Shown here: positions 7,134 to 32,164 of the stretch, piece by piece | How the letters are laid out: every line of letters starts with the position of its first letter | Position numbering within the stretch: the stretch's first letter is position 1 | Assembly: GCA_002256025.1 (NCBI GenBank) | Contig: NKIB01014326.1 | Coordinates: forward strand, 1-44,714 | Length of the DNA: 44,714 nt | From: Asterionella formosa | Taxonomy: Eukaryota | Reading direction: 5' to 3' | The notes under the pieces: generated by a model | Databases searched by the model: none | Told to the model about the DNA's origin: nothing | What the model saw: the letters and a program-made list of their open reading frames with translations, nothing else | Position numbers and translations under genes: made by a program

Positions 7134-7185
7134 TACCTGTTACCTGGTACCAGGTCCTGCAGTACCTGGTACATGTACCAGGTAC
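7134..7185. repeat. GGTACC/CCWGG repeat cluster
   Basis: tacctgttacctggtaccaggtcctgcagtacctggtacatgtaccaggtac. Confidence 0.75.
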
Positions 7186-7910
7186 GTTACACATGCGTAT
7201 TTTCTCACTATTGATGGGACCTCCACGTGTTCAGAAATAGTGGAGGAAGGCAGGGGAGCGAAGTAAACTAACATGGAGCAACTGCGAGCTCCTCAATTTT
7301 TATTATCTGTAGACGGTCGTACGAACACAAGTACAGTTCCGGTATCATTGTCACAATTTTGTCAAAGCACCCAGCAAAAGTAGCGGTTCGAGTAGCACTA
7401 TCAAAGTGATCCTCCACAAAGCACTGGTACCAGGTACCGGTAGCTCACCACGGGCGGAGGTTAATGTATATTTATGTTTATATGTACAATCAAATAATTC
7501 CATTTCAGTGCCACCATATATCATATGTAGCTGGAATGTTGCAACCTGAAGATCAACATCGTTGGATACGTTGGCCTTGGTATGGAGTTTGTTTGCATTT
7601 AATAATCATCTAGCAAATCGAAAATAGTTTCTATCAATAATAGAAAAAAATCAATGATAGAAATTTTTCCCAACTAAAAATCGAAATGACTCTTTTTTAC
7701 TAAAAAGAAAATCGAAAAATATGAAAAAGGTTTGTATTATCATTGAAATCAACAGTTTATTGGTTGGCTGGGTTTAGCTTGCTTCATGACATACTGGTGG
7801 TACTCAGCCACTGGAATATAATGTCATACATAGATGAAGGATTTAAATTAAATTTTAGAGTACGTTAAAACTAAGCTCATAATCGCACTAGTGCGTTTTA
7901 GACACAGAGG

Positions 7911-7959
7911 TGGGGGGGGGGGGAGGGGGGGTATAAAAAAAAANNNNNNNNNCCCCCCC

Positions 7960-8009
<50 letters not shown>

Positions 8010-8016
8010 CCCCCCC
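7911..8016. other. Assembly gap (short N run ~7943-7952) flanked by poly-G and poly-C
   Basis: N run with homopolymer G on the left and C on the right. Confidence 0.9.
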
Positions 8017-8199
8017 AGACCGACTGTAACTAACTCTGCCTATAGCGAGCCCTTGGACGACGTCCTTCCAACATCTCCAATCGTGGAGCAAGACGAAGCC
8101 GAGCTCCATCACCTCGAGCCTGCATGCCACCAGGGTGCTGTGCTTGAAGGGAAGTTTCCACTGTCCGAATCCATAGTAACTTCTGTGACAGAGTATGAC

Positions 8200-9252
8200 G
8201 TGATTTTCTGACCTGGCACGGAATGCTAAATAAGAACCTGTCAGAGGGAGTTAACCTATCCGCTTGAGAGTATAACTGTGTTATGTTGCGGTCCGCCTCT
8301 TGCTTGGCCAAGAATATCAATCTGTTCATCCTCTGTGACTCCGTACAGAAACTTGGTTGCAGGAAGTCCATTGCCCGATCCCAAAGTCCCATAAATCAGA
8401 TATTAGCTGGGTTGTCCAGTGATCATCAATATTTGAATCTGAATGTAGCCGTCTTTCTTGGCAATATAGCGCACTTGCTTTCCTTGCCCCAGTTGACAAT
8501 AATTCTGCCCCGGATGGCCTGATCCCACCCTATGTCCTGCTGATTAATGAAAGCTTCGAAGGTGGTGTGCCCAATAATATCGTTTGGAGGTGGAATAACG
8601 CCCTCGTCCCATCGTACAACGCCTTCGCTAAACCATGCATGTTTCCATGATCAGCCGGAATACTTTCATGACATAAGGACATGTTTGTCGCCCCTTGATT
8701 GTGGTCCACATCTCCGTCCATAGATTATTCCTATACTAGTTAGTGTTGCGAGGACACCTGATCCCATGATTTAAGTCCTCATTAAATCTTCCGCATCGTG
8801 GATATCGTTCATCATGTTGTTTTATGAATTTCCGACGTTGTTTCATTGTGGCGAACAAATCAAATTCTAACTTGAAAAGCATTGTCTTGTGTGAAGACCC
8901 AGCTATCCTCGCCCCTGCTCGATGTCTTGCCTGCCAATCGACCATGTCATAATTTCTTTTGTGTCCCACCCGGTCTTAGATATAATAAACTTTTCGGTAG
9001 ATTCGCGGTAGCTAGCCTCCCGAATAGCCAAGGGATGGTGACCTGTTATCCATGTTTCCTGTACACATAAGGATGCCCTATGACCCGGTGGGGAAGCATA
9101 CTTCGTCGTACACGAGTTGTGGCAACGGAGACAGGTCCTTGCCTGCTGGTTTGCTAAAGCATCCACATCACAGTTGATTTTCGCCTGCCTCCCATGGCAA
9201 TTTTTTATACGCTATATGTGAATCTTGGTGGGATTTGACGTGATGTCGACTG
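8200..9252 (-). mobile_element. Degenerate 3' end of a non-LTR retrotransposon (LINE): end of RNase H plus C-terminal Zn-finger region
   Basis: Minus-strand fragments HHVKSHQD (~9225-9250), KINCDVDALA, MVDWQA, LFKLEFDLFAT and (Y/C)PRCGRFNEDLNH.IRC (CCHC-like) appear in the order typical of RNase H-bearing LINE ORF2 ends. They are broken by frameshifts. Confidence 0.7.
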
Positions 9253-10555
9253 CAAATAAAAAGTATCATGCATATAGGATCAAGAGTATTGTACGCTAAG
9301 TGGCACAGGATTTTCGTATATATGATAATTTTTGGATCAAAACTATGATCAAGGTATCCTACTATAGCTATGATGATTTATTAATATTTTTCCGACCTTG
9401 AAGTATACTAATAATAAGACATTATCATCACACGATGTATATCAACTGATCAACAACATTACTCATCAACATCATAAACCTTCTCATATTATTTTCAACT
9501 CTCGTGATCGCCCAATGTAAATTATTACTACAACGCATCCTAAAATCAGCTCAACTCTATGCTATCATGTGAATTGTTCCATCCTAAATCTATCTTAAAT
9601 ATGATCATAATTCTAATCACAAGCATTGTTCAAAATAGATTGAAATGGATCGTAATTTAGCTATAAAATTCAGCAATGCTATCTATTAATCTACACGCCA
9701 GCGACCCAACGTTTCTCTCTCTACTCGGCTCAATGTATATTAATCCTGTCCCGCCCTCCTTTTCTTCCTCTTTTCTGAATCTTTTGCCAAGCAATGCCTT
9801 ACTAATGTTGCGTCTCTCTCCCTGCTGTTAGTGTCATTCTGAACTCGCCGACTATTCCGTTGTTTGATCGGTTTTATTGTCCTATGCAGTTACAGTAACA
9901 ATGAGAAGGAATGACTTGTTAGCTAGACATGTTACACTGACACAAGCAACATCACGCCATTCCATTGTATCCTCTTGCTTGCTTCACTTACCACAGCCAA
10001 ATCAAAGCAAGTGATTCATAAGTCTGTAATAGTAAATTTGTCAGTAAATTCTTGAATAAGGAAGCTTCAGGTTTCCAATGTTGCCAAATAAAACTTACCG
10101 ATTCATTTTCGTTAGCTTAACTTTGAGATAAGGTAAATGTGGCGTGTCCGTCAGTTATGTTCCTTCAGAAGTGAATAGGAGGTCCAACGACAAGAGCACT
10201 TACCAATTTTGTTTGTTTTACTTTGGTGCTCCCCAACAAGAGAAACGAGCTGTTGAATCAACTGAGAAAAAAGGAAACGTGCATTTAGTTTACAAGCAAT
10301 TTGTTATTGTCCTGCCTCCCAACAATTGTCATCCAAGTACCACATTGATGGCTTCATTGCCTTAAACATACTCCATCCTTCGAAGCCGCAATGTGTCGAA
10401 GCCACAATGTTTTTCGTTATTGCCTTTCTTGTCATGTGCTTTACTACGATATTTCTTTTCATGAAGCAGGCATTGTTTGTTAACATGACAGAACGATTTC
10501 CAATTTATTTGCCATGTATATATTTATAAAATTTGTAAATATATAAATATTTCAA

Positions 10556-10810
10556 GTGTCGTACATTTGTATGTCCCTCGGTTCTGGTGGGTTCTTCATA
10601 AATGTCTGGGATCATGGACAGTCATTTGACTGTGACTTTGACTTAGATCGAGAAGGTAAAGCAGCAGAGAATCAACATGCGATGTTACTTCGCATTCCTT
10701 TCAAGTACATATTTTTAATGCGTGGTGATACAGTTCATGCAGGTGCTATGGACAATCACCTCACCAATTGAGCTTGCTTTGAGACTTCATATGTACTTGT
10801 TGCCTGGTTA
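10556..10810 (+). pseudogene. Fragment resembling the C-terminal half of a 2OG-Fe(II) dioxygenase (DSBH) domain
   Basis: LRIPFKYIFLMRGDTVHAGA...(frame change)...ALRLHMYL fits the distal His plus Arg pattern. No HxD half was found. Confidence 0.4.
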
Positions 10811-11029
10811 CCTCCCGAGGAAAACTCAGTTGCGATCAGGAAACAAGCTGGGAATGCCATTAGCACAAAGGCCTATGGAAAGAATCGTATCCCTCCATCT
10901 CTAGCTAGTTTCTTTTTTGCTTGATTCTTATGGAAAAGGATGGCAGATTTATATTTAAAAATCATTGGTTATTAGGAAGTTGTTCAACTACTAAATCAAA
11001 ACCAGCTGCATTACAATTGAGATAAAGCG

Positions 11030-11430
11030 TTGTCAATTTGCGTCATCAACACCAATTGAATTGGCATTGACGTGAATTTAATTGCCTCAGAAATAAACTC
11101 ATGTTAGTCAATCCAGTATTGACCATGAGGGGGTAATGGCCTTCGCATCATCATCCCCAATTGAATTGGCACTGAGATCAAGTGTAGTCATGACAGTATC
11201 GACCTTGAAGGCCTGTGTTGATATTGACCTTGATGGGGTAATGGACTTCGCATCAGCATCACCAATTGAATTGGCATTGAGATCAAGTGTAGTCATGACA
11301 GGCAGTCTCGACCTTGAAAGCTTGTGTTGATAATGACCTCGATGGGGTAATGGCCTTCGCATCATCATCACCAATTGAATTGGCATTGAGATCAAGTGTA
11401 GTCACGACAGTATCGACATTGAAGACCTGT
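11030..11430 (-). pseudogene. Degenerate RI-like leucine-rich-repeat array (about 4 units of 105-109 bp)
   Basis: CCAATTGAATTGGCA recurs at 11052, 11157, 11262 and 11371. Units translate to TTLDL(N/S)ANSIGDDDAKAI (LxLxxNxIGDxGAxAI type). The 109-bp unit shifts the frame. Confidence 0.7.
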
Positions 11431-12992
11431 GTTGATGGCCTCGGTGCTATCAAGACCAATAGAATTATAATTGAAAGCAACTGTAGTCAATGCAGCATTG
11501 ACCTTGACAGCCTCTACAATAGGCTGGCGCCGACAACATCAATTGAAGTCGATATTTCGATTCAAATAATGACACCGGTCTATGACGTTCGATTTCGTAC
11601 AAGGTCACTCCATCAGCCGCCATGGCTGTACTTATGATCGAACAGCACAAAGGATGTCCCGTTACGGGTTTCGATACAGGTACCCACGTTGAGATTGATT
11701 ATCGTGGGTAAATTACGTGGAAATACTACAGAGCATTTTCTACATATGCAGCGACATAAAACAATAGAAAAAAGCAAGACGTGTTACCATAATAAATTTA
11801 TTTACTAGCGATGTACTGGTACCCACATTGATACACAGCTAAGCAAGGAATGTTGGTGTTGATATAGAGGGAAAAACGATATATTAAGTTAAATTATAGA
11901 CACTCCTCCATGTTGAGACAAAACTGTTTACATCCCAACCTGGTGGTTTTGAAAACCACTGGGATGGAAGATATCTCAGACAAAAGCGAAGAAGTGGCTG
12001 ACGAAGATGACAATCACAGTCACATAGACGAGGTAATCTTTCAATAAAAAATTTCACTAGTATTGACAACAAAAATTTGAAATTGCCCCTAGAATTCTTT
12101 TCGTCGTTTTTACTCAGTTTTGAGGATATGAGCCAAACCGATGCATCGTTGAGTTCGTGGTGACTACCTTGATAACTTTTATATATAATTATTTCTATAT
12201 TCTGCATACTAAATAGATGAGAAAACTTAAGGAAAAGAAGTTTCGGAGAGGGTGCAGCATCTCAAAATGCAAGAAAATACTTCAATGTTTAATTTTTTTA
12301 AACTGAGTTTCATGTACACACTAATTGTTGTGGTTCATCTATCTATGGAATCTTGATTAGTAGGTCATTTTGAATTTTAACATAAACAGACATATAGACA
12401 TGCAACAATACACTGCTTGTTTCTTATCGACTAAAAAATTGGATTGTGTGAAGTTCATGAGTTCGCCTGACTGAGGGTTTGTCCATTTTTGGAAACTTTT
12501 ATGCAAAAATTGCATTCTTTCTTGCTCCATGTGTGATTAGATTTCTTTCAATTTTGACTTGTACTCCTCAAAGTCCAATTTAAGTGAAACACTTACACTC
12601 TGCTCCTCTTCATCCTCAACAGGTTCATTGAATTTCGAATGGACCAGTGCTGGGAGGGCCTTCTTGTCATGTATATCTTCGGAAAGCATCTTGATGGAAA
12701 GGGTATCCAAGTTTTCTTTGGCACATTGTTAAATATTCATGCAGATGTCAGGGTTGGCGTGGAGGGAGGAAAATAGATCATTGGAGTTGACTCTCAGTGC
12801 ATGTGTGGCAATTGTGAGTCCTTGGTTGGTTAATCTCTTGGTTGCGGTTGGCTAATCTCTTGGTTGCAACAGCTCAACAATGTTCCCAGGTCCAGATATT
12901 CATGTTTTCTTTTGCAATTAGGAGTGAGAGGACAATGTATTTGCTTTTTTTGGGTGTTCCAGGTGTAATGATGAGTGATGTCATCGTTTTGG

Positions 12993-14341: not shown

Positions 14342-17011
14342 TCAGCTTTCCAGTTTGTTAGCTGAATCTTCTAAAGGCACTTCAAGTTGGGAAGCACAGG
14401 AGCCAAGACGAGATTGATTTGACATGCGTTGGGACTTTAGACCTTTTGCCTCTCTATAGCTCAAAGAAGCTCGATTGAGCTCATGTCCATTCTCTCTGAA
14501 AGACATAGACGATTGTCTGTGGACCCAAAAGTCATCATTTCTCATCACCTTTGATGTTCCAGTACGTGTTTCATGTTCTTCTACGGTATTTTGTCCATCA
14601 GCTTGTTGGGAATCATTTTTTGAACGATGCTGTGCAACCGTAATTCTACGAGTTGAGAAGTTGTGTTCTTTTCGTAATTTGCGCACTGCACGCTGCAAAG
14701 CCTTGGGGATAAAGGTGGGTAGCAAGATAGTGAAACAAATAATGGCAACCAGCAACGATCTGACCAGAAAGTTGGCAGTCGGGTTGTCGTAGACAAGGAA
14801 TAGCATGGGACTGCCAAGGATTAAGGCCTCGAGGATGCCAGCATTTGTCAACGTGACGTAAAAGGATTCATTAAAGTCACTGGGGAGATTCCGGGCCAAA
14901 AAACATTGGTAGTTTGCAAATAATAGCGCTGCAAGGTTGACAACAAAGAGTGCAACGATGACAGAAGTTTGCACTGCCTTTTCCATGTTTCCCTCTTGTT
15001 TAAAGCAAACGCCATAGCTTTCGATGGAACGGCCAAACGAGTCGAAATTTTGAACTTGAACGCGACTGTATGTCAATGGGGCGACCGTTGTCAAGACAAC
15101 AAGTAATGCAATATTGATCGTCATCATAATCACAAATGGCAGCAGCACATCTCTTGCTTTGACTTGGGTTCGACGGAATCCCTGACCATGTTTAAACAAT
15201 CGATTCAACCGCATCGTTTTGGAGAAGAGGGCAGCGAACGATGTAACAAAACCGATCGACAATAACCAAAGTGTTGACATGCAAGCAATGTCAAGACCGT
15301 GCTGAGATATAGGTTCTTGCATAGACATGGGGATAATAGATGCACCAAATATGATTGTTCCGATACACAACTGACCGAGAAAGATAGGTTGCGATGCTCG
15401 TACAATGTCGGCTTTGCGATTTTTCCACGTCCATGCACACCATCCAAGTGAACACAAAATGGTCGCAGCGCAAAGCACGAGACCGACAACACGAACGGGA
15501 GTTGTTATCAAATTCAAATTCTCGTCAAATGGGGGTAGTGCCTGGGGTGGGATTGTCGAGTTGTCAGCGTAAACAAAGGGTAATATTTCCGTGATAATAT
15601 GAGCTGATCGAAAGTCAATGTTGACTGCCACGTTCCCTGTAAAGCTGTAGTTATCTTGAGCGGAAAATGCATCCGACAAAAGTAAGTTTTGGATGTTATA
15701 ACTGAGGTCGTCCGCATTCCTAGTTCCTGATATATTCTTGAATGACACATGTCCTGAGACTCCTTCAAATTCTAAAGCCACAAGGGTTCGATAGAGTTCT
15801 GGTCCGGTGAAAAATTTATTGTCTGCGCGGCAAGCCGCAAGACCGAGACTGATCGCCGCATCATAGTAAAGATATTGATAGATCGACCTCCCAGGATATG
15901 TCCAATCAAAACCATCAAAAATAGGTGCATCACGGTGTTTGCTAACAAACACTTGCTGAAGATCAGTATTATTTTGGAAAATCGCCAAAGCCTCCTCGAA
16001 TTTAAGATAAGTAGGCGTAGTCGGGGACAAGACTCCAGTGCCATGCATAGCCCGGGCTAAATCTCTTTCCGTCTCGCGATTCAATGTAAATCCAGGTTGT
16101 GCTAACGCCAAGGACGTGTCGGATAGCAACCAAGTGTACCCAAATTGACCCAAAATTCCAGCATCGATAGCACTCCGAGCAACTGTCTTCCAGGAAGGTG
16201 GATTAAAAATGCCAAAAATGTATCTTACACCAGATTTACGTATTCGCTCTGTAGCATTGGATATACTATCATTGCCTTTGTCATCCTTAAATTGTGCGCT
16301 CACAACAGTGATGCCTCGTAAATATGCTTCTTTCGCAATGAATCCATTGTAAGCAGTACCATATGAATCTCCAATGTATATAACACCGAAATGAGTAACT
16401 TTCAGACTTTCCAAATAAATCAGAAGTGCTTTTGCGTCTCCCTCATTGGTAGGAACAGTTCTCGCGAAGAATGGATACGTATCCTTGTTATCAAGTGATG
16501 CTGATGTGCTTGATCCAGAGATTTGCGGCAACTCGTAACTTCCAGCGAGTATGGCTATAGTTTGACTGACAGTCGACCTGGCATCACCAAACAACGCGGT
16601 AGGTAGCGGAGTACCTGACAGCTTGTGAGAGTTCTGCGCATCTTGAAGGTTCCTAGCTGCCTCAATGGGACTGAATTGTGTATCTCGCAGGTCCACAGTC
16701 AGTTGAACATCACAATCTTGCAACAAGTCGGACAGGCCCGGCAGCACTGTTGGATCTCGATCATTAAAGTGTTTCATTGCCAGATAGCTAGCTGCTTCAA
16801 GGTAGACTCTATAGCTACTTATAGTCCTTATCTCCTGGCCGTGTTCGTCCGTTGCTGTTGACGACAATGGAAGCAACGACAGTATATGACATTGTCGTAG
16901 CGTCCCATTGACTAGAATAACTGCGGAGCCCTCGCGAGTCTCGACGCTGCGCTCTCCTTCTTGGGCCATGTCGTTGAAACGACCACTTCTTGTGATATTG
17001 ATCCTATACAT
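14342..17011 (-). CDS. Class C GPCR (GABA-B receptor-like): ANF/Venus-flytrap ligand-binding domain plus 7TM_3; true start uncertain
   Basis: Ligand-binding motifs LPQISGSSTSASLDNKDTYPFFARTVP, YDAAISLGLAAC and FEGVSGHVSF. 7TM motifs IVRASQPIFL, ACM..LWLLSIGF..F.ALFSKT.RLN and ARNLPSDFNES.Y. Confidence 0.92.
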   Translation of the reverse strand: MYRINITRSGRFNDMAQEGERSVETREGSAVILVNGTLRQCHILSLLPLSSTATDEHGQEIRTISSYRVYLEAASYLAMKHFNDRDPTVLPGLSDLLQDCDVQLTVDLRDTQFSPIEAARNLQDAQNSHKLSGTPLPTALFGDARSTVSQTIAILAGSYELPQISGSSTSASLDNKDTYPFFARTVPTNEGDAKALLIYLESLKVTHFGVIYIGDSYGTAYNGFIAKEAYLRGITVVSAQFKDDKGNDSISNATERIRKSGVRYIFGIFNPPSWKTVARSAIDAGILGQFGYTWLLSDTSLALAQPGFTLNRETERDLARAMHGTGVLSPTTPTYLKFEEALAIFQNNTDLQQVFVSKHRDAPIFDGFDWTYPGRSIYQYLYYDAAISLGLAACRADNKFFTGPELYRTLVALEFEGVSGHVSFKNISGTRNADDLSYNIQNLLLSDAFSAQDNYSFTGNVAVNIDFRSAHIITEILPFVYADNSTIPPQALPPFDENLNLITTPVRVVGLVLCAATILCSLGWCAWTWKNRKADIVRASQPIFLGQLCIGTIIFGASIIPMSMQEPISQHGLDIACMSTLWLLSIGFVTSFAALFSKTMRLNRLFKHGQGFRRTQVKARDVLLPFVIMMTINIALLVVLTTVAPLTYSRVQVQNFDSFGRSIESYGVCFKQEGNMEKAVQTSVIVALFVVNLAALLFANYQCFLARNLPSDFNESFYVTLTNAGILEALILGSPMLFLVYDNPTANFLVRSLLVAIICFTILLPTFIPKALQRAVRKLRKEHNFSTRRITVAQHRSKNDSQQADGQNTVEEHETRTGTSKVMRNDDFWVHRQSSMSFRENGHELNRASLSYREAKGLKSQRMSNQSRLGSCASQLEVPLEDSANKLES

Positions 17012-20964: not shown

Positions 20965-21005
<41 letters not shown>

Positions 21006-21052
21006 CGGGGGGGGGGGGGGNNNNNNNNNNATCCCCCCACCCCCCCCCCCCC
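20958..21052. other. Assembly gap (N 21021-21030) flanked by poly-G and poly-C
   Basis: 10 N with a long G run on the left and a C run on the right. Confidence 0.9.
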
Positions 21053-22100
21053 GGAATCCTAGGGACCACATGAAAAAGACAGGTGGAGAATGCATGAATC
21101 GAACCCACCACACCTTTGAATGCATGCTAACTAACTAAGCAACCCCCCTTAATACTCATGAATATAATTTATATAATAAGCTATCTCGTTGATTTATTGA
21201 AGTACCAGTTGCTAGGAGAGTATAGAGTACACCCAGTAGTAGGAGCGAGTTAGTTGAGATCCTTGCAGAGCTTTGATGGACCATACCAACCGTTTGAGAT
21301 TGCCATGTCATAGTACAGCTCTGAATTTGCTAAATGGAACACGAAAATTTTCCCAAAAATGTCCTGCTTCCCATGTTGTCATGCCAAAATGTGAAATTCT
21401 CTTTTTTCACCAACATAAGTCTTGCCTTGACACTTGAGGTCATTTCATTCTTTTTTTGCTTAGCCAATGTTGTTAGTTGCAGATTGCTGAATCCGTGCTT
21501 GTTTCCTCTCTCAGATTGCTTGAACTAGCAACTTGTCCTGGAATAGCTACCAGTTCATTTCGCAATGCAGCTGGTTATTTATATAGAACATTTTAATTAA
21601 GCTAAAATTATGTTGGACTGGTAGCTACGATGGCTACCCAATGTAGTTTCATGATGCATCAAGCCATACAGTTCTACATGAAGAGACTATAGTGAATGTA
21701 CTCTAATTATGTATGCACTCATTAAAAATAAACGTTAGGTTGCCGGCGCAAGTCACAATCTAGCTAAACCAATAGAAATGCTCCTTTTATTTGGCTATCG
21801 TCGGAGTCTTATCAACCTAATACCTGATATTTGGTCGATAAGGGGGTCATCCTCGACCAGCAAGACCAAAGCATATTTGGTCTTGGTCTCGATACAGTGG
21901 CTAAAATATGTTTGCTTTTTCGACCAACACAACGCATCATTACGTGTATAGACCTGCATTTTCAATTGGCTTGGTATTTGGTCGATGCGGTGGCGATGGT
22001 CTACCAGGTAAGACAGGGGAGGGGACTGGTGAGTCAAGGCTCAAAATCCATTTCATATTGTTCTGGTGTCCGAATCCCAGTCGTAAAAACGACTGCCTGG

Positions 22101-22548
22101 AGCGAAGTGCTAGAACAAACACTTGAATGAACAGGAGAGATCAATGATCTCGAGAATAAAATTGCGAAGAAGCGATAACAAGTCGAATAAACTGAAATTA
22201 TGATGTTAAAACTAAGTTTAGACGAAAAAGGTAACCTTGGTGTAAAGGACTCTGAAAAGGTAGAAACAGAGTAGGGTAGTACTTGTGACTTGATTTGGGA
22301 GAGTAGAGTCTACACAACATGAATTCAGTTGCTGTAGCTCTCCATATCCATTGTCGTAGAACGAGGACACGACCTAAAGGAACGAGGTCAAGCAAGGAAT
22401 TCACACTGGTGAGTGTGTGAATGAGGAAAGAATAGTGGTGGGCATGTAGTTTTGTAGTAAGAAATGTACGAGAGCAATAGTCTTTTCGGGACCAGTGTTA
22501 TCTGTGCCTAGCTAACTGGCACTAAGGCATAATAATCGGGTCACGGCT
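22101..22548 (-). repeat. 3' LTR (448 bp)
   Basis: Matches 27272-27720 with 7 substitutions and one 1-bp indel by manual comparison (~98%). Preceded on the minus strand by the PPT. Confidence 0.95.
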
Positions 22549-22557
22549 CTCCCTCTT
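22549..22557 (-). promoter_or_regulatory. Polypurine tract
   Basis: Minus-strand AAGAGGGAG abuts the 3' LTR. Confidence 0.8.
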
Positions 22558-22582
22558 GGGGACGTGAGACAGCACGTATGAG

Positions 22583-25500
22583 TTACCAGCCCATTAAGAG
22601 TTTCCGAAGGGCTTGATACTTGACACGATCAAGTCCTTTTGTAAAGATATCTGCAGTATTCATCTGCTTTCAACCTTAAATATGTTGATTGTCCCGTTGG
22701 CAACATGTTCGCGAAAGAAGTGGTATGGGACAGCGATGTGTTTAGAGCGAGGAGTCATTCTTGGTGAGGTGGCTAAAATTAAAGCCCCATTGTTATCCTC
22801 AAACACAGATGAATATGTAGATGTAAGAAAAGTAGGATCATTCATCAACAATGATGCAACTTCTTCGACCAAAGATTTTAGTGGTAGAAGACTGCGCATA
22901 CTTGCACTGAGTGCAATATATTCAGCTTCCATAGTAGAAAGCGCGACTTGTCCCTGTAGCTTGGATTGCCATATGAGGGGACAGTTTGCCAGAGAAATGA
23001 CAAAACCTGTACGCGACTTAACACATACTGGATCTTGGTCATCTTCGCGTCTCCACAAACCTGCATAGTCCGCATCAACATACGTATCCAGACTGAGTTT
23101 CTTGGTAGGTCGCAATATTAGTCCTTATGTAGATGTCCCTTTTAGGTAGCGGCAGATTCGCCGGATGGCTTCACCATGGGACACTTTAGGCGAGTGTGTG
23201 AAACGTGCGCACTGATGCACAGCGAAAGAGATATCAGGGCGCGAATTCGAGGCTAGTAGGTAGAGAAGCATTCCAACAGCAGATGGGTAGCTGAAATCGT
23301 CAACAAATGTGTCGCCAAGTAGATCGGTTCCAAGAGCAGTTGAGCTTGCTGGAGTATCCTTTGCATTGCAATCCTGCATAAAACAGGTCCTGAGGATTCG
23401 ATCAATCAAACCCATTTGAGTGAGGAACAGGGATCCATCCTCTAACTCATCAATTTGAATACCAAGGAAGCTGGAAATGTCTTCCTCCATTGTTAGTTTG
23501 AACTCTTTGCCCAAATTAGCAATCATTGCATCGATTTTCGTGATATCTTTTCCCAGATAGATTAAATCATCGACGAAAACAAGGACAATCATTTCTGGAT
23601 GGATGAAGAGACACGGTTCGATTTGACTTGCAATGAAACCACGAGAAAGTAGAGAGGCCTTGAGTACCTCGAACCATGCAAGGGGTGCATCCCTACTTCC
23701 ATATAAATTCTTATTCAGCTGAAGCACAGAATTGGAGTTGGATGTTTCGAATCCCTTAGGTAGTTCAACAAAAGTTGGTTGCTTGACATTAGCTTGAACA
23801 AAAGCATTTACATAGTCAACTTGTCAGGACGAAAGCTTCAGAATAGTTGAAAGTGTAAAGCAGAGACGGACAGACAACCACTGTACTACTACAGGAGCGT
23901 ATGTCTCGAATGCGTCAATTCCCATGACTTGCTTATCACCACGCACACAGAAGCGTGCCTTATATTTTCGTATACGCCCATCGGGGTACCGCTTGCGCTT
24001 GAAGGTCCATGTAGTTGGTAATACTTTCTTGTTGGAAGAGGTCACAGTTGCACGAGGTACCAGAGTCCACGTTTTCTGTTCCTCAAGCCCATTAATTTCG
24101 ATTCGCATTGCTTCAATGAATGCTTCCTTGTTTTCTGCCATCATTGCCTCATGATACATCAACGTATCTGGATCCGACTTGGATGCAATATAGCAGGAAT
24201 GTGAGTATGGGAGAGAACCAATCAAATGGTTATTGCGGAGTGCAAACGCCAAAGAATCAAGATTGGATTCCTTTCGTCCATCTTGATCATTGAGAAGATC
24301 AGGTAGAGTGGAATAGAAGCACTCAACTGCTGACATAGATCCAAACTTTGCATCATATGCATCGAACTTGTTTGGTCGTCGTTTGGTTCATTCTGGGCGA
24401 GGCATTGAGCGTTGAATAGGTGTCACCTTCATTGGGGACTTCCTTGGTGATGTGATTGGAGGTAAAATTGTTTGAATTGTCATCGCTTTTTCAGGTTGCT
24501 CCCTCTGCTTGATGACTTGCTCCCTCTGTTCAAGTGAAGTAGGAATGTTAAGAGCTGGAAGAGGACTTGTAGGTTCGATTAGAGTTGGAGGTGGAACAAT
24601 CTGATCTTGTGCCACTTGATTTCTTTGATGTAGTAATTCCTCTGGTGTTAACCGCTCGTCATTCAGAGCAACAGGGTCGTTTTCATCGAATTCTACCTGA
24701 TATCGATGTTTGATGCAAAGATCTTCCCATTGGATGGGAGGTTCTTCACTTGATTCCAATGTAGAGACCACTGTTGAAAAGAGATCGTCAAAGATGACGT
24801 GAAATTGAGGTGAAATGTGACTGGTTGCAGGATTTAGCACCAAAGGAACTGTAGACGCGTATTTAGTAGGGGACAACCCAAGAAAGACAGCTTGGCGAGA
24901 TCGAGGTTTCCACCTAGGAATTTTCTTTCCATCTTGTAGTGTAGCTAGGTTCCAATACATATACTACCGGACACCCCCACACATGCAAATCCTTTAGTCG
25001 TTGCCTCGGCACAGTAGTGCGTGTAAAAATGTCTATCGGGGCAGTACCAGACTCGATATTTGGCATATGGTTGAATATGTAGACAGCGTATTCGACAGCA
25101 AGGGGCCATAGGGCAGAATCTGCCAGGTCTTGCCAGGGCACTGCTGCATGAAGCATCATAGTACAAGACATATTTGATATTGTTTGAATTGCCCTTTCGG
25201 CAACACCATTGTGATGGTGTGCACCAACGCCACTGTATTCTGCTGCTTGATTCTGACTTTGAATGTCTGCAACAAATTCGGATGACCCAAATGCCCCATT
25301 ATCTGACATATAGGTAAGTATATTGACTCCGTAGGCAAGGCACATGCGCTCATAGTCGAGTTTTGCTCGTAGCGTTTCCTCAGCAGAAAATGTCACTTGT
25401 GGCTGAATCCGAATGTAACTGGAAGCTTGATCAACGAAGATTTCTCCTCCGCGATACATATCTTCGGCTGGCGTCTTCCCACGCGATGATATCAGGCGAC

Positions 25501-25765
25501 CTTTTGCAGAGCACTCAAAGTGATCGATTGAGACTCGCTGTCCTGGAAACAGAACATCTCCCTTCCAGGCATGCTCCCTCTCAGGCACAGGTGACGTGAT
25601 TGATGCCTTAGTGGACCGGCAACGGGCCTTTCCATATTCACAAGCTGCACATTTGGGGGGCTCACATTTTCCAGCTGAGGAGATTCCAGGGGTTTTACCA
25701 AAGGTTCCTGATCGAAGAACCCACTGAACTGACTTGAAATTCAGGTGGCCAAAGCGAAAATGCCA
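22583..25765 (-). pseudogene. Disrupted Copia pol: integrase, reverse transcriptase, RNase H (protease absent)
   Basis: Integrase Zn finger WHFRFGH...CAACEYGK and DDE (VSIDHF, MSDNG, NGVAER). RT motifs KYKARFCVRGD, LYGSRDAP..WF, FVDD and SRPDISFAVHQCARF. RNase H motifs YVDADYAG, STMEAEYIALS, FEDNNGA and ADIFTKGL. It carries several stops and frameshifts. Confidence 0.93.
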
Positions 25766-27221
25766 TGTTTGCTCCGCGTTCTTCGTTTTTAGCTTGTGCC
25801 TTGAATCCTACACTCTTTGTTTCTTTTTCAACAAGCAACTTTTTGGGAGCTGAAGAGACTCCTGAGGTGTGACTGGTTGTTCCATGAGTTGTTCTCCAGT
25901 GAGTGCAGATGGAGCACCAATGAAAAGTCTTTCCATCGCGAGTAATTGTTTCACTTTCCCCATCGTTGGGCTTGACTCGTTGCCACTCAGGGTGAACCAC
26001 TGCAGATTTACCTTGTCGATTTCCTCTTTGTCGGCTTGTTCGTCCTCCTTTCTCCTTGGTAGTCCCTTTAGCATTCTTTTCAGGACACTCAGTTGACTTG
26101 TGACCTTCCTTTCCGCATGTCCAACATGTGCCTTCACGTTTTTGCTGGTTTGCTGCTAGGCGATCGATGCCTTTTGATAGTTTTTCGAGGAGAAAAGCAG
26201 TAGGGGCAGCCTCCTTGTCCTTCTTTGAGTCTTGAGCAACCCAAAGACCAGATTCGATTAGAGATTGATACTCGTCATCTGCTTCATTGCATACAGACTC
26301 AATGGTAGGAGCATTTGGGATAGATGCCAGAGCAATTGCAGTCTTGCCAGCGTTCTCCTTTAGAAACTTGCTCACCTCAATACGCTTTGTAGCGGCCCAC
26401 ACAGCAAAGATCGAAGTAGTCGAGTTGGATAAAGAATCCACAACTGTCATCAGAGCATCATATGGTACCATATTTGCGTTGCGTAGACGTACATAGTCAT
26501 CACGAAGTTTGATAGTATGCCTGGTCACATTTTCGCCCGGTTCCAACTTCAAGCGTCGCTCTTCAAATGCTTTCTGAAGCAGCTTTGTTCCACGATATGA
26601 GGAAGATTGAACCAATCCCATAACAAACATCCACACAATAGGTCCATTGTCATAGAAGTTTCCAGCTTTAGTAAGTACCTGTGCTTGGAGGGGAGGTGAA
26701 ATGGAAGATAGAATGTATGCTGCTGAGAAGCGAAGATTTTGAAGGTCGTACATATCGTAGCGCGCGGAAGGCAAGGTGAGACTTGTATTGATAGCATTCT
26801 GAATCAATATGGTTGACTGACGAGTGATTTCTTCCCTGGAGAACTGTGTGTGTCCGTCTAGAATGTTGATCCATAAATTGTCTGGAGTGTTGAAATAGAA
26901 GATGCTATCCATTCCGTATTCGATGAGATGACGATGAACTTGCCCTGTATATGTTGATAGACCAAGAACTGGGTCAGTTGCTGCCTCAAAGAGAGTCGAA
27001 GGTGCCGCTTTAGCTCCAGCTTCAACCTTCATCATATTCGAAATGTTGGAGGTGCGGATGGCCATGAAGGATGGTGGACCAGAGTTTGTGGTGGAGATGA
27101 GTAAGAACTCATTGACTGTGTTGAGCACAGGGATGCCTCCAGTGAAGGACACTTGATTCGTCTGACCTCCTCGGAGAGGCATGATGGAGTAGGGATCAAC
27201 AGGAGTGTTGATGGTGGCCAT
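25695..27221 (-). CDS. Copia Gag (508 aa; the last ~20 aa are out-of-frame integrase sequence created by a deletion)
   Basis: Open ORF starting just after the PBS, with CCHC knuckle CWTCGKEGHKSTEC and a second motif HWCSICTHWRTTHGTTSH typical of diatom Copia Gag. Confidence 0.88.
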   Translation of the reverse strand: MATINTPVDPYSIMPLRGGQTNQVSFTGGIPVLNTVNEFLLISTTNSGPPSFMAIRTSNISNMMKVEAGAKAAPSTLFEAATDPVLGLSTYTGQVHRHLIEYGMDSIFYFNTPDNLWINILDGHTQFSREEITRQSTILIQNAINTSLTLPSARYDMYDLQNLRFSAAYILSSISPPLQAQVLTKAGNFYDNGPIVWMFVMGLVQSSSYRGTKLLQKAFEERRLKLEPGENVTRHTIKLRDDYVRLRNANMVPYDALMTVVDSLSNSTTSIFAVWAATKRIEVSKFLKENAGKTAIALASIPNAPTIESVCNEADDEYQSLIESGLWVAQDSKKDKEAAPTAFLLEKLSKGIDRLAANQQKREGTCWTCGKEGHKSTECPEKNAKGTTKEKGGRTSRQRGNRQGKSAVVHPEWQRVKPNDGESETITRDGKTFHWCSICTHWRTTHGTTSHTSGVSSAPKKLLVEKETKSVGFKAQAKNEERGANMAFSLWPPEFQVSSVGSSIRNLW

Positions 27222-27256
27222 AGTGGAAGATATTGATGGTGTTTTAGCAGAAGAAG

Positions 27257-27271
27257 CTTGGGCTCATAACC
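27257..27271 (-). promoter_or_regulatory. Primer-binding site complementary to the anticodon arm of initiator tRNA-Met (half-tRNA type)
   Basis: Minus-strand GGTTATGAGCCCAAG directly follows the 5' LTR; compare the Drosophila copia PBS GGTTATGGGCCCAG. Confidence 0.85.
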
Positions 27272-27720
27272 AGCGAAGTGCTAGAACAAACACTTGAATG
27301 AACAGGAGAGATCAATGATCTCGAGAGTAAAATTGCGAAGAAGCGATAACAAGTCGAATAAACTGAAATTATGATGTTAAAACTAAGTTGAGACGAAAAA
27401 GGTAACCTTGGTGTAAAGGACTCTGAAAAGGTAGAAACAGAGTAGGGTAGTACTTGTGACTTGATGTGGGAGAGTAGAGTCTACACAACATGAATTCAGC
27501 TGCTGTAGCTCTCCATATCCATTGTCGTAGAACGAGGACGCGACCTAAAGGAACGAGGTCAAGCAAGGAATTCACACTGGTGAGTGTGTGAATGAGGGAA
27601 GAATAGTGGTGAGCATGTAGATTTTGTAGTAAGAAATGTACGAGAGCAATAGTCTTTTCGGGACCAGTGTTATCTGTGCCTAGCTAACTGGCACTAAGGC
27701 ATAATAATCGGGTCACGGCT
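27272..27720 (-). repeat. 5' LTR (449 bp)
   Basis: Direct repeat of 22101-22548. Confidence 0.95.
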
Positions 27721-28522
27721 CCTGGCATACAGGTATGTATTACACCATCCGCGAGCAAAGAACAAGGGTCGTGCATTCGCTCCTCTATCTGGATGGCGTA
27801 CGAGTGGTACTTCTGATCTACCGGGTAACCACCTTAAATGTATTATTTGCATTGCCCCTGCATCCGAGTCGTCTGTCGCGACGACAAAACCGGATTAGAT
27901 GTCGATTCTTTTTGCGCGTGCCTATCCTTATGTAGCTACTATATAAATTTTTTAACATTAAGTGTTTATTTTATTACTGTTCCTCCTTCCTTCAGAAAAG
28001 ATGCCATGTTGAAGGAATTGGCTGCATGCATTGATCAGATATGTACGTGTGACTACCGGTATCATAGTTTCAACCCGAAAACAACCTCCTATTTATTATA
28101 CATATGCAAAAAGCTTGCCAGGTAGATGTGTACCAACCACAATCATGCCATCCCAGCAACATGTTCTGTCATTCACAGTACATATTAAATGTACTAGAGC
28201 TTTATTTGCTACCTACCAGTATATATTACTTCTTAATCCTATGAGGATGTAGGAAGAATAAGTTCAGGATTTGCTGCACTTTTTCTGCCTTCGCTAAAGG
28301 TATCTATCACGTGCTACACAGTGCCACCGATGTTCGGGCAAAATATAAACAGAGCTTAATTTTCATCCTACATACGTATAAATATATGTTCAAATACATG
28401 GATCACATAGGAAATAGGAACTTCACATAGAGCCGTGCGACATCCTTCCGCATCACTCTTTATGCTGTTACATTTATGTAACCTACCGTATTGCATCACA
28501 CTTTCCAATTGGACTCGAGCAA

Positions 28523-29194
28523 ATGGACGACGAAACGACCATCAATTTACTGGAAGCCATGAATCACAGCAATAATGGCGTGCGGCTCGTTGAATTGGGT
28601 AGACATGCGGAAGCACGAAAGTTTTTGCAGAGTTCGATAGATTTGATTGACCGCTATTTGTCCGGTGATGAAGCGTCCCATAGTGAGCATCATGATATAA
28701 CCGACTTCTTCATGTGGTCAGAGCCGTTTAATCTTGCTAGCGACAAAGCGATCCATGCCTTTATTTACCGAGCGGCGGTTGTGTTCAATGAGCCGAGGGA
28801 TCTAACTCTCCCCCTGCCACGAAATTGGATTAGGCCAATCAGCATCGCCATTACTTTCAACATGGCACTTCATCTCCACACAGTTGGACTTTGGAAACTA
28901 TCGGCACAAGATGCTGAGCGGGCCATTGCGTTGTATACAGTAGCTCTACATGGGTGCTCGGACAACACAAACCCAATGTTACGAGTGGTCATAATGAACA
29001 ATCTCGGTGTGTTGCACTACACCGAATTCGTTGACTATGCCTCCGCTCGCGCTTGCTTCGTACAACTATGGGACTATCTCTTGTTACTCCAGGGAGGAGG
29101 ACGATACGAACGCTACATTCTGCCTGAAATAAGAAATCACCTCAACATGAACATGGTTTTATTGGTACCACCCTCAGCTGCAGCTGGCGCCTAA
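28523..29194 (+). CDS. TPR-like protein of a diatom-expanded family, 223 aa
   Basis: Motifs NNGVRLVELGRHAEA, FIYRAA, FNMALHLH, AIALY..AL, MNNLGVLH and C-terminal N..L...SAAAGA. Confidence 0.75.
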   Translation: MDDETTINLLEAMNHSNNGVRLVELGRHAEARKFLQSSIDLIDRYLSGDEASHSEHHDITDFFMWSEPFNLASDKAIHAFIYRAAVVFNEPRDLTLPLPRNWIRPISIAITFNMALHLHTVGLWKLSAQDAERAIALYTVALHGCSDNTNPMLRVVIMNNLGVLHYTEFVDYASARACFVQLWDYLLLLQGGGRYERYILPEIRNHLNMNMVLLVPPSAAAGA

Positions 29195-29491: not shown

Positions 29492-32164
29492 CTAGTCGAC
29501 CTGCATATGATCGGAGACATCTCCTGGCGTATTTTCTTGTGCAGGCTCAGTTTCCATGGGTTGCGGTCCCTCAGAAGGCTTTGCTTCTTGCTTCTTTTCC
29601 ACTTCAGCAGGCTTCTCTTCCTTCTTAGGCTTAGGAGCTGGCTTGTTCTTGATAGGACTACAAACATCAGTCAATTCCTGACTCTTACTACTGATCTCGG
29701 CGCAAGTGACCGCAGGGTCCACACTGTTTGACAACGATCCTTGCTTGTCCAACATTTCATACATCCAACTCGACACTTCGTCACACTTGGAATGACACTT
29801 TTGTCTCTCATCATCCGTGATATGGGAGTACTTTGCGTCAGTCTGAGATTCATTGAGCCACGCCTTATACATTTCCACCTTCCTCTGTAGAGTGGACACA
29901 GCATTGGGGCGACTAGCAGCCTCGACTGATCGTCGTTCGATAGGTGTGCCAATCTTCTTCAATGCGGACAACTTGTCAAAGTACACAGATTTGACGGCAT
30001 CGAACCCGTCTTCATACAGCCAATTCTCTGTTGCCTCGAGGGTCACTGAGAAAGACGATTTCTCTGCATCGGTAGAATAAGGACCAAGGTGAATGTCAGA
30101 GCTGATCTTGTCCCTCATGTCATAAATATATGACTCAAGTTCGTTGCGCATGTCAGAAGTTTCACGAACAACTCGGTCGGCATTAGCCATGGAAACTTCA
30201 GCCTCAAATGCTTTCTCAATCTCAGGTTTTGTCCAATCTAAAGGACGAACTGTCGTGAATTCTAGGTTAGTCTTCTTCAATTTCTTTTTCTTGTCGTCTC
30301 CTTCCTTCGCCTCAGTATCGGGTACTCCCTCGTCGTCGACTTCTTCCACCATTTGCGCAGAGCTCAAATGGATGATACCATGTATGTCTTCCTTTACATT
30401 CACGCGAACCTTCTTCTCGGAGCCTTCGCTTGCCTTGATCTTAAAGGTACATATTTCACTTGAAGATGCTGCGTTTCGGCCATAAAATGCTGATTTTTCA
30501 TCGTAGGATACATTGACTTGAAACTCGCCTGATCTTCGAAGTGTAACACGTCGAACAATGGGGAACGACAAACCACGGTCAAACATGATGACCGAGTTGG
30601 CCGGCATTTCGGCACCATCAGCAACACCCTCAATTTCGACGCCCTGTTGAGATGATCCCTGTGTCTCTTCATCCCAAGAAACTTTGATTGGGTAGGGCTG
30701 GGCTTCAAGGATTTCATACGGGAGAACCTTGAAACGTGGTGAGAGAATGGCACTTTGAAGAGCAGCTCCACGAGCAACTGCTTCGTCGGCGTTCATTGTA
30801 GTAAATAGAGTCATTCCCCCGAGAAAGTTTGAAATGGTTCGTTTGACTGATCCGATACGGGTGCTTCCACCGACGATCTCGACACTAGACAGGGTGGACG
30901 GCTGAAGCTTCGCCTCGGCCAAGGCCAATTCGATCGGTTTTATCAAACGATCCAATAGTGGCTTACACATGACTTCGTATTCCTCTGCTGTTAAGGTTCC
31001 ACTGTAGTCAAAATCGTCCATCAAACATTCCAGGTTAATTCTAGCCTCGCTGACACCTTGGGGACTGAGCGTTTTCTTGGCCTTTTCGGCAGCAGCGAAA
31101 AGCTTGAGAGCAACTTTCGGACTTTCCATGGGACTACCGCTAAGCTTCCCTTTATGTTTTTCTTCAAACTTATTGGCAATCCACGAAGCAATGAGGTAAT
31201 CGAAGTCTCGCCCGCCCAGAGTTTCGTCGAAGTACGTCGACTTGACTAGTAGTTTTCCCGTTTCAAAAGCGACGATCGACACAGTGTAGCACGACGCTCC
31301 AAAGTCGATGAACATGACGTTTGTTGGTTCGTCCTTTTTGAACTCCTTATTGAGATCCTTGAAGATTCCATACGACAGGGCAACGGCAGTGTGCTCATGC
31401 ATCAAACGCTGAACACCTTTAATCCCAGCCATTTCGCACCCAACAACGAAGGCTCGTCTCTGAGAATCCGTGAAGTAACTAGGAATAGCAACGACCCAAT
31501 CCTGCGGAAAAAGCTGCTCCACGGTCTTGAAATCCTTTGCATCAATATGCGTCGAGGAAGCAGCGGCCTTTTCAGCAGCAATCATTCCCAGGTGCTTGAC
31601 CATCATCCCAGCAATCGCTTCGATGGTAACGACCATGTCTTCTCCATTGAGACACACTTTGACCCCGATCGAATCAGGTCCCCCCATGGCACGCTTCACA
31701 GGAACGCAAGAAAAGTATACACGCTTCATCTCCGCTTGCGCTCTGGGGTCATCAAAGGCCAGACCAATGAGGCGCTTGATGTTGACGACAGTGTTCTTGT
31801 AGTTTGATGTAGCTGACGTAGCCGCGCCTTCTCCCATGGTACGAGACTGGTCGAAACCAACCATAGTTCTATTGAGTAGTAAAGCGAGACATCATAGTGG
31901 GTCAGTGAAGGTCCTTGGAAGCGTCATTGTGGGACGAGGCGCATCGAGTAAAAAAGGCAAGAAACAGGCCGAGCACGCAAAAACAGTACCACGAGCTACT
32001 GGGACGAAATATTCTCGGCAGTTCCATGGATTTCGAAATCTAGTAACCATCACTTACGGATTCAGACGATTGGAGTTTCCATTGAGGATAACATCGACGC
32101 CGCCGCGGCCAGCAGCAGCGATCACGGAGTGCTGGAGACCAAAGTCAATGCCTACAACGCTCAT
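29492..32164 (-). CDS. Hsp110/HSPH-type Hsp70-family chaperone; exons 32164-32058 and 31868-29492
   Basis: Exon 1 MSVVGIDFG...GGVDVILNGNSNRLNP is joined by the GT-AG intron 32057-31869 in frame to TMVGFD. Motifs LGGRDFD, VEIVGGSTRI, NADEAVARGAALQSAILSP and RNELESYIYDMR. Confidence 0.95.

What the first reader, a model, noticed from the sequence alone, without database searches (positions are those of the whole stretch)
22096..27725. Copia retrotransposon with AGC...GCT LTR termini instead of TG...CA
Seen: LTR identity spans 22101-22548 and 27272-27720. The 5-bp direct repeat CCTGG abuts both outer ends, the PBS abuts the inner end of the 5' LTR (CTTCGCT|GGTTATGAG) and the PPT abuts the 3' LTR (AAGAGGGAG|AGCCGTG). 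All four junctions therefore give an LTR of 5'-AGCCGTG...CTTCGCT-3', and both LTRs share it, so it is not post-insertion decay. Established: retroviral and LTR integrases join a near-invariant CA-3' end, and the non-canonical termini I know of still begin with T. Inference: this is a Copia lineage whose integrase joins CT-3' ends, which TG..CA-based annotation would miss or mis-trim.
Basis: partly seen in the sequence, partly recalled or inferred. Interest (0 to 1): 0.85.

Follow-up and report, generated by a model that had tools for sequence, protein, structure and literature searches.

The report
Copia retrotransposon with AG...CT ends
A dead copy of a Copia-type jumping gene in an algal (probably diatom) genome has repeat ends reading AG...CT instead of the usual TG...CA, a rare but not unprecedented variant of how such elements end.

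Summary
A minus-strand Ty1/copia element lies at 22096-27725. Its LTRs are 448 and 449 nt long and 98.2% identical. A perfect 5-bp duplication (CCTGG) flanks it. A primer-binding site abuts the 5' LTR and a polypurine tract abuts the 3' LTR. All four junctions give 5'-AGCCGTG...CTTCGCT-3', with a 1-nt ambiguity at the 5' end.

The primer-binding site is an exact 12-nt complement of the initiator-tRNA anticodon stem-loop, the copia/Ty5 type of priming. The copy is dead: the protease is missing, and there are two frameshifts and three in-frame stops.

I could not reach any independent insertion of the same family. No genome is held, and the read-laying output was swamped by a neighbouring high-copy repeat. 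Eight related elements on contigs binned into bacterial MAGs share the polypurine-tract core. After it, six start TG and two (L004, L012) start AG. Three of them end CA before the same primer-binding site. So the second base G and the second-last base C are kept, while the terminal base pair varies.

The lineage reading is partly supported. Interest is modest.

The parts
22096..22100 (.). Target-site duplication CCTGG, left copy (downstream of the element in sense orientation)
22101..22548 (-). 3' LTR, 448 nt. In sense it reads AGCCGTG...CTTCGCT.
22549..22557 (-). Polypurine tract AAGAGGGAG abutting the 3' LTR. The core GAGGGAG is shared with L003, L004, L005, L009 and L012.
22586..24939 (-). 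Pol C-terminal part: IN C-terminus, RT (RVT_2) and RNase H. It is 67% identical to P0003. In-frame stops lie at 24388-24390, 23824-23826 and 23125-23127. A frameshift lies near 22666.
24917..25768 (-). Integrase: N-terminal zinc-binding region (Pfam gag_pre-integrs) and catalytic core with D,D-35-E (D95, D169, E204 of the 297-aa frame). There is no Pfam rve hit at E<=1, but the predicted fold is that of a retroviral integrase. A frameshift at about 24917-24939 cuts the C-terminus.
25695..27221 (-). Gag ORF of 508 aa with one CCHC zinc knuckle. Its last ~25 codons are an out-of-frame read into IN. The protease segment found in relatives (P0003 residues ~190-348, with the D[ST]G motif) is absent between gag and IN.
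27256..27271 (-). Primer-binding site GGTTATGAGCCCAAGC abutting the 5' LTR. The first 12 nt are an exact complement of the initiator-tRNA anticodon stem-loop. All 16 nt are identical to the PBS of L003.
27272..27720 (-). 5' LTR, 449 nt
27721..27725 (.). Target-site duplication CCTGG, right copy

Best explanation
This is a genuine, integrase-mediated insertion of a Ty1/copia retrotransposon of the diatom-type clade. It is now a dead copy.

Proposed mechanism:
- Minus-strand synthesis is primed by a fragment of initiator tRNA-Met that ends in the anticodon arm, as in Drosophila copia and yeast Ty5.
- Plus-strand synthesis is primed from the PPT AAGAGGGAG.
- PBS and PPT both abut the LTRs with no spacer. 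The linear cDNA therefore ends exactly at AGCC...CGCT and needs no 3' trimming.
- A DD35E integrase joins the 3'-OH of a terminal T, not A, at both ends to target DNA cut with a 5-bp stagger.

In this clade the second base (G) and the second-last base (C) are constant. The terminal base pair is T:A in most elements and A:T in a minority (this element, L004, L012). AG...CT is thus a tolerated or inherited state of part of the clade, not decay after insertion.

Shown: the boundaries, the TSD, PBS complementarity, PPT conservation, the DD35E residues and the integrase fold, and AG after the PPT in two relatives.
Inferred: which tRNA fragment primes, blunt-end joining without trimming, and that the integrase accepts or prefers a terminal T.
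For: - Four concordant junctions and a perfect 5-bp TSD.
- LTRs 98.2% identical and both carrying the same ends.
- PBS is a 12-nt exact complement of the initiator-tRNA anticodon stem-loop at offset 0, and is unique in the window.
- The same PBS follows a CA-ending LTR in L003 and L013, and a variant of it does so in L009/L019.
- After the PPT, TG follows in 6 of 9 elements (L003, L005, L009, L010, L011, L013) and AG in 3 of 9 (window, L004, L012).
- In L009/L019 the start inferred from the PPT is confirmed by an 8-nt terminal inverted repeat that ends at the PBS.
- In L004 the reverse complement of the first 7 LTR bases occurs once in 4677 nt, in the expected place. That gives AGTCAAG...CTTGACT.
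- The changes at the two ends of the window element are complementary (T>A at the start, A>T at the end), which keeps a 3-bp inverted repeat.
- D169 and E204 are invariant across 21 sequences. The IN model hits RSV, HTLV-2, PFV and MMTV integrases at E~1e-5, prob 1.00.
- In run X1 the LTR bins carry summed contig depth of 2,900-12,800, against ~700-920 for single contigs of the body and flanks. This hints at further LTR-like copies.
Against: - I saw only one insertion of this family. No second copy with a different TSD was available.
- The LTR starts of L004 and L012 rest on PPT homology alone, because each contig holds one LTR.
- L004's 3' end is unresolved. The 7-nt inverted repeat gives CT but leaves 13 nt before a TGG-type PBS-like string. 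The alternative reading gives AC.
- PPTs of L010 and L011 differ (AAGGAAG, GAGAGGAAG), and their TG starts are inferred.
- The AG-start elements are not each other's closest relatives: 46-58% RH identity, against 57-58% between the window and TG-start L009-L011. The RH tree needs 2 changes. The IN tree puts the window and L004 on one side of a 98* branch from L003 and L005, but that is only four labelled tips.
- The tRNA used for the PBS test is bacterial, not the host's.
- Depth from contigs is not a copy number.
Confidence: 0.62

Rival explanations
1. One-off or family-private ends. The family is normally TG...CA. A parent copy acquired T>A next to the PPT and A>T next to the PBS, and its cDNA was integrated inefficiently once or a few times. 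There is no change in integrase specificity and no lineage trait.
For: Only one insertion was seen. The copy is defective and may have been mobilised in trans. The window end differs from L003's by a single terminal base: window CTTCGCT|PBS against L003 ATTCGCA|PBS. The integrase helix motif is not distinctive.
Against: Two independent substitutions that happen to be complementary at the two ends are unlikely without selection. AG after the same PPT recurs in L004 and L012. The LTR depth excess suggests several LTR copies.
Confidence: 0.22
2. Boundary shifted by one base. The LTR is GAGCC...CGCT with a 4-bp TSD CCAG, so the ends would be GA...CT.
For: G precedes the LTR at both the 5' flank and the PPT. 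The repeat finder extends identity one base further, to 22549 and 27721.
Against: A 5-bp TSD is the Copia norm, and here 5 of 5 bases match. In relatives the LTR starts directly after GAGGGAG (L003, L005, L009). This reading is also non-TG/CA, so the main point stands.
Confidence: 0.1
3. Artefact. The structure comes from assembly error or chance repeats, or it is not an integrase product.
For: The window holds two N runs. Metagenome-type assemblies can collapse LTR elements, as in L005 and L009.
Against: Contigs of four public runs from four studies tile the element body at 90-100% identity. The complete LTR-PBS-gag-IN-RT-RH-PPT-LTR order with a TSD is not a chance product.
Confidence: 0.03

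Closest known systems
CoDi (Copia from Diatoms) families lacking TG/CA: CoDi3.2, CoDi4.2, CoDi4.3 (Maumus et al. 2009, PMC2806351; I read passages and section 18)
   Same: They are Ty1/copia elements of diatoms with LTRs of 153-844 bp, and TG/CA is explicitly reported as missing in 3 of 26 families. The window's RT is nearest to an Atlas cluster whose few labelled members are Bacillariophyta (a lead only).
   Different: The paper's main text does not say what these families have instead of TG/CA. That is in Additional file 1, which I could not open. No CoDi reference sequence was on hand, so membership in any CoDi group is untested. The runs holding this element are freshwater or algal, whereas the CoDi families were described from marine diatoms.
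Drosophila copia and yeast Ty5 (priming by an internal fragment or the anticodon stem-loop of initiator tRNA-Met). I saw Kikuchi 1986 and Ke 1999 only as references in PMC10886601; their content is recalled.
   Same: The PBS is complementary to the initiator-tRNA anticodon stem-loop and directly abuts the LTR. Both are Ty1/copia.
   Different: By recall, those elements have TG...CA ends. The host tRNA here was not available.
Plant non-TGCA LTR retrotransposons: seven types in LTR_retriever (bioRxiv 10.1101/137141, passages); Tos17 TG..GA; soybean TG..CT; Rosaceae TGTT and AACA Copia (PMC5659011, passages)
   Same: They are mostly Copia with short LTRs, 5-bp TSDs and insertions near genes. 3'-CT ends (TG..CT, TACT) and an A-first end (AA..CA) already exist.
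   Different: No listed type combines A first with T last. The LTR_retriever text says T is the only invariable terminal base in plants. Here both terminal bases are swapped, and the inverted-repeat symmetry is kept.
Zam-clade (errantivirus-like) Metaviridae of insects, with termini AGTTAYRK...TAAYT (PMC3601003, passages)
   Same: The LTR starts AG and ends T, and the inferred L004 ends AGT...ACT resemble it closely.
   Different: It belongs to a different superfamily, Ty3/gypsy, with RT upstream of IN. Here the RT is RVT_2 and IN lies upstream of RT.

Membership tests
Ty1/copia (Pseudoviridae) LTR retrotransposon | RT of the RVT_2 type | tested here: met
   PF07727 scores E 3.8e-21 and 7.7e-09 on the two RT fragments.
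Ty1/copia (Pseudoviridae) LTR retrotransposon | Domain order gag-PR-IN-RT-RH, with IN upstream of RT | tested here: met
   tblastn of P0003 shows IN at element 1958-2809, then RT-RH at 2787-5140. Gag with CCHC lies upstream.
Ty1/copia (Pseudoviridae) LTR retrotransposon | Aspartic protease domain present | tested here: not met
   No match to the PR segment of any of 7 relatives queried. The one extended HSP (P0008) shows no real similarity before the WHFRFGH motif. I read this as a deletion in this copy, because the relatives have the domain.
Ty1/copia (Pseudoviridae) LTR retrotransposon | Two LTRs in direct orientation flanked by a 5-bp TSD | tested here: met
Ty1/copia (Pseudoviridae) LTR retrotransposon | PBS complementary to initiator tRNA-Met, and a PPT, next to the LTRs | tested here: met
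   The PBS is a 12-nt exact complement of the initiator-tRNA anticodon arm (bacterial stand-in). The PPT is AAGAGGGAG. The host tRNA was not available.
Ty1/copia (Pseudoviridae) LTR retrotransposon | TG...CA LTR termini (usual, not universal) | tested here: not met
   The termini are AGC...GCT at all four junctions.
Retroviral-type DDE integrase | D,D-35-E triad on an RNase H-like core | tested here: met
   D95, D169 and E204 are present, and D169 and E204 are invariant in 21 sequences. The AlphaFold model has mean pLDDT 68.3. Foldseek hits RSV, HTLV-2, PFV and MMTV integrases at E 1.5e-05 and below. Sequence methods failed: no Pfam rve hit at E<=1 and no PDB sequence hit.
CoDi groups 1-7 (diatom Copia, Maumus 2009) | Placement of the RT within a CoDi group on a tree with CoDi reference sequences | not testable with these tools
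Plant 'non-TGCA' types catalogued by LTR_retriever | One of seven terminal motifs, all with T first | tested here: not met
   AG..CT has A first. The main text says T is invariable among the seven types. I did not see Supplementary Table S2.
Zam/errantivirus-type AGT...A(C/T)T elements | Ty3/gypsy polyprotein order (RT before IN) | tested here: not met
   IN precedes RT and the RT is RVT_2.

The most novel reading that the evidence does not exclude
A sizeable branch of stramenopile or diatom Copia elements has flipped the terminal base pair of both LTR ends (TG...CA to AG...CT). Their integrases join a terminal T 3'-OH as their normal substrate. TG..CA-based annotation therefore systematically misses or mis-trims them. 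Sister elements with the same PBS and PPT but TG...CA ends would offer a natural comparison for mapping which integrase residues read the terminal nucleotide.
Probability: 0.35. Interest if true: 0.5.

Novelty: new member of a known kind. Interest (0 to 1): 0.3.

Why it matters
LTR finders that demand TG..CA, or the seven plant exceptions, would drop this element or trim it to an internal TG or CA. Diatom and other algal repeat annotations may therefore under-count such families. Biologically, it adds a case in which the nucleotide carrying the attacking 3'-OH is T rather than the near-universal A, while the neighbouring C is kept. That is a useful data point on what LTR integrases actually read. 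It does not overturn anything: non-TG/CA Copia were already reported in diatoms, A-first and T-last ends already exist elsewhere, and this copy is a single degenerate insertion.

Tried and rejected
- Whole genome: none is held, so the proposed BLAST of the LTR against the genome was impossible.
- Read laying (runs X1, X5, X7, X8; contigs only). The loose-end table lists 24 rows, with 237 more not shown. All but one lie in the high-copy repeat at 21574-22003, and none lies at an LTR end. The termini were therefore not tested this way. None of the 12 joints listed spans 22100 to 27721/27726, so I saw no empty-site allele. Contigs drop rare variants, so this says nothing either way.
- DNA of the close family (P0001-P0010, 69-76% RT identity) could not be reached. 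The search for related loci with A1 confirmed no relative among the pattern-matched stretches: 0 of 48 in metagenome contigs, 0 of 27 in genome contigs and 0 of 39 in viral contigs. P0022 gave 0 of 46. A2 and A3 in viral contigs gave 0 of 56 and 0 of 35.
- The exact 22-nt LTR-end pattern gave 0 hits in metagenome, genome and viral contigs.
- Earlier findings of the scan: four look-ups returned nothing.
- Cluster look-up gave no organism names.
- Rfam at E<=0.1 on 21000-28700 gave 0 matches. No tRNA gene lies in the window.
- A second copy of L004's LTR in its MAG, or in L012's, was not found; only the self-match came back.
- Loci L002, L006, L007, L008, L015 and L016 hold no PPT or PBS junction of a related element and were left out of the 9-element tally. 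L014 is the same contig as L005 and is counted once.
- Integrase helix comparison (a motif was found in 52 of 120 proteins, a few of them regex false hits). GAHH[HQ]NG.AER.I.T is clade-wide. The residue four positions after the catalytic E is Q, L or M in the close family and G, K or R elsewhere. No termini are known for these proteins, so no correlation can be drawn.
- Literature search for 'AG...CT', 'AG..CT' or 'AG-CT' together with 'long terminal repeat' found 1 paper, which was irrelevant.
- PMC8147415 and bioRxiv 10.1101/2025.10.24.684338 (passages only) say nothing about termini.


Full report
**What is there.** The window carries one LTR retrotransposon, on the minus strand, at 22096-27725.
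- Direct repeats lie at 22101-22548 (448 nt) and 27272-27720 (449 nt). They differ by 7 mismatches and one 1-nt indel, giving 98.2% identity.
- BLAST of the LTR and of the whole element against the 44.7-kb window finds no further copy. No other LTR pair exists in the window.
- CCTGG flanks the element on both sides.
- In sense orientation the junctions are CCAGG|AGCCGTG......CTTCGCT|GGTTATGAGCCC (inner end of the 5' LTR), AAGAGGGAG|AGCCGTG... (inner start of the 3' LTR) and ...CTTCGCT|CCAGG.
- The only ambiguity is one base at the 5' end, because a G precedes the LTR in both contexts. The alternative, GAGCC... with a 4-bp duplication, is no more canonical.
- A 5/5 flank match at fixed positions has a chance of about 0.001 (my arithmetic from base composition).

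**Primer sites.** The 12 bases after the 5' LTR are the exact complement of positions 30-41 of an initiator tRNA, that is its anticodon stem-loop including the CAT anticodon.
- I tested this against E. coli metZ as a stand-in fetched by tool, because no host tRNA was available.
- The match starts at offset 0 from the LTR end, and the 12-mer occurs once in the window.
- This is the priming type known from Drosophila copia and yeast Ty5. I saw Kikuchi 1986 and Ke 1999 only in a reference list, and their content is recalled.
- The PBS therefore does not start with TGG. The last T of the LTR cannot be explained away as the first base of a CCA-complementary PBS.
- PBS and PPT both abut the LTR without a spacer. 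The predicted linear cDNA therefore ends exactly at the LTR ends, and no 3' trimming is needed before joining. This last step is inference.

**Coding capacity.**
- Pfam finds a CCHC knuckle in the 508-aa gag ORF and RVT_2 in two fragments.
- Pfam finds the gag_pre-integrs zinc-binding region at the start of IN.
- tblastn with the closest full-length relative (P0003) shows IN at 70% identity and IN-C/RT/RH at 67% identity.
- The defects are a frameshift in the IN C-terminus (window ~24917-24939), three in-frame stops (24388-24390, 23824-23826, 23125-23127) and a further frameshift near 22666.
- The protease segment of the relatives is absent. Gag runs straight into the IN N-terminus.
- The copy is dead. 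If the deletion predates insertion, it was mobilised in trans.
- The IN core is not recognised by Pfam rve even at E<=1, nor by sequence search of the PDB.
- It does have D95, D169 and E204 with the 35-residue spacing, and D169 and E204 are invariant in 21 aligned sequences.
- Its AlphaFold model (mean pLDDT 68.3, pTM 0.72) matches RSV, HTLV-2, PFV and MMTV integrases at Foldseek E 1.5e-05 and below, prob 1.00.

**Independent copies: not obtained.**
- No genome is held.
- Public runs hold the stretch: an 'algae metagenome' run holds 0.89 of the sampled words, and several freshwater metagenomes hold parts.
- Laying four runs showed contigs tiling the element body. In X1 the depths (704-875) are like those of the flanks (748, 918).
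- Summed depth in the LTR bins is 2,900-12,800. This hints at additional LTR-like copies, but contig depth is not a copy number.
- The loose-end table was filled by a very high-copy repeat just left of the element. The LTR ends were therefore not tested.
- All scans for the close family's DNA failed.

**Relatives that could be read.** Two scans of genome contigs returned eukaryotic Copia contigs binned into bacterial MAGs. Eight of these elements contain the end of pol followed by a PPT.
- The PPT core GAGGGAG is shared by the window, L003, L004, L005, L009 and L012. L010, L011 and L013 have variants.
- Directly after the PPT, TG follows in 6 of 9 elements (L003, L005, L009, L010, L011, L013). 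AG follows in 3 of 9 (window, L004, L012).
- L004 and L012 share AGTCAAGA although their LTRs are otherwise unalignable.
- The LTR-end/PBS junction is readable in three relatives: L003 ATTCGCA|GGTTATGAGCCCAAGC, L013 CAAGACA|GGTTATGAGCCCAAAC and L009/L019 TCGTTTCA|GGTCATTGAGCCCAAGC. All three end CA, against CTTCGCT|GGTTATGAGCCCAAGC in the window.
- In L009 the start inferred from the PPT (TGAAACGA) has its 8-nt reverse complement exactly at the PBS. This validates reading LTR starts from the PPT in this clade.
- In L004 the reverse complement of the first seven LTR bases occurs once in the 4677-nt locus, at 1442-1448, between the LTR start and gag. That gives AGTCAAG...CTTGACT. The alternative end, next to a TGG-type PBS-like string 13 nt further on, would be ...TTTAC. 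Neither is CA.

**What this says.** Across the nine elements the second base is always G. Where the second-last base is known, it is always C. Only the terminal base pair varies, T:A or A:T.
- In the window the two changes are complementary, so the inverted-repeat symmetry is kept (AGC...GCT). That argues for selection on the ends rather than decay. Both LTRs carrying them shows the cDNA was integrated with these ends.
- The three AG-start elements are only 46-58% identical to each other in RNase H. The window is just as close (57-58%) to TG-start L009-L011.
- The RH tree needs two changes of state, although starred branches force only one.
- The IN tree puts the window and L004 on one side of a 98* branch from L003 and L005, but with only four labelled tips, and 152 of 500 label shuffles do as well.
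- I therefore prefer 'the terminal base pair is labile or tolerated in this clade, and AG...CT is inherited in some families' over 'one lineage with a re-tuned integrase'.

**Comparison with print.**
- Maumus et al. 2009 (passages and section 18) state that TG/CA is found in 23 of 26 diatom CoDi families and is missing in CoDi3.2, CoDi4.2 and CoDi4.3. What replaces it is in a supplement I could not open, so this may already be the same thing.
- LTR_retriever (preprint, passages) lists seven plant non-TGCA types, notes TG..CT in soybean and TACT, and says only the first T is invariable.
- Rosaceae Copia with TG..TT and AA..CA ends are described in PMC5659011 (passages).
- The Zam clade of insect Metaviridae has AGTTAYRK...TAAYT (PMC3601003, passages).
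- A search for AG...CT-type termini returned nothing relevant.
- Each half of the observation therefore has precedent. I did not find the combination in a Copia in the library searched.

**Verdict.** The element is a new member of the known class of non-TG/CA Copia elements, seen here as a single degenerate copy. Interest is modest.

Noticed in passing
window ~21574-22003: A ~430-bp stretch 93 bp left of the element has summed contig depth of ~288,000-297,000 in run X1, against ~750-920 for single-copy flanks. Loose ends cluster at 21574, 21666/21668, 21723, 21764 and 22002/22003 in all four runs. It is a very high-copy dispersed repeat of unknown type. Rfam finds nothing there at E<=0.1.
   Followed up: partly
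window 27639-27716 (equivalent to 22467-22544): Contigs of two runs from different studies (X8, X5) go back 78 nt within the LTR, with one base between the two sides. This indicates family members with a ~79-nt tandem duplication near the U3 start (tables 5 and 5c).
   Followed up: no
window 25768-25950: The protease domain found in all seven full-length relatives is missing between gag and IN in this copy. As a result the gag ORF ends in an out-of-frame read of the IN N-terminus.
   Followed up: yes
loci L002-L016 (GTDB species-representative MAGs): Fifteen contigs in MAGs labelled as bacteria (Cyanobacteria, Clostridia, Rhodobacteraceae, Pirellula, Bacteroidota and others) encode eukaryotic Copia polyproteins. 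This is eukaryotic contamination of the bins.
   Followed up: partly
L005 (1-121 = 5854-5974) and the contig of L009 (first 141 nt = last 141 nt): Two relatives are assembled as circular permutations holding one LTR. This is most simply assembler collapse of the two LTRs. One-LTR circles cannot be excluded.
   Followed up: no
window 24917-25768 and relatives: The integrase core of this whole clade escapes Pfam rve (no hit at E<=1, and none in the precomputed domain lists of 120 relatives) although its predicted fold is that of a retroviral integrase. Domain-based TE classifiers may under-call it.
   Followed up: partly
window 11089-11410: Three tandem copies of a ~108-nt unit, 72-100% identical to the reference copy.
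   Followed up: no
window 7944-7952 and 21021-21030: Two short N runs (scaffold gaps). The second is ~1.07 kb left of the element.
   Followed up: no
window 2941-5808, 14342-17011, 29492-31864: Ordinary eukaryotic host genes surround the element: a DPP-IV/S9 peptidase, a family-3 GPCR with an ANF-receptor domain, and an Hsp70. The insertion lies in gene-rich DNA, as reported for plant non-TGCA Copia.
   Followed up: no
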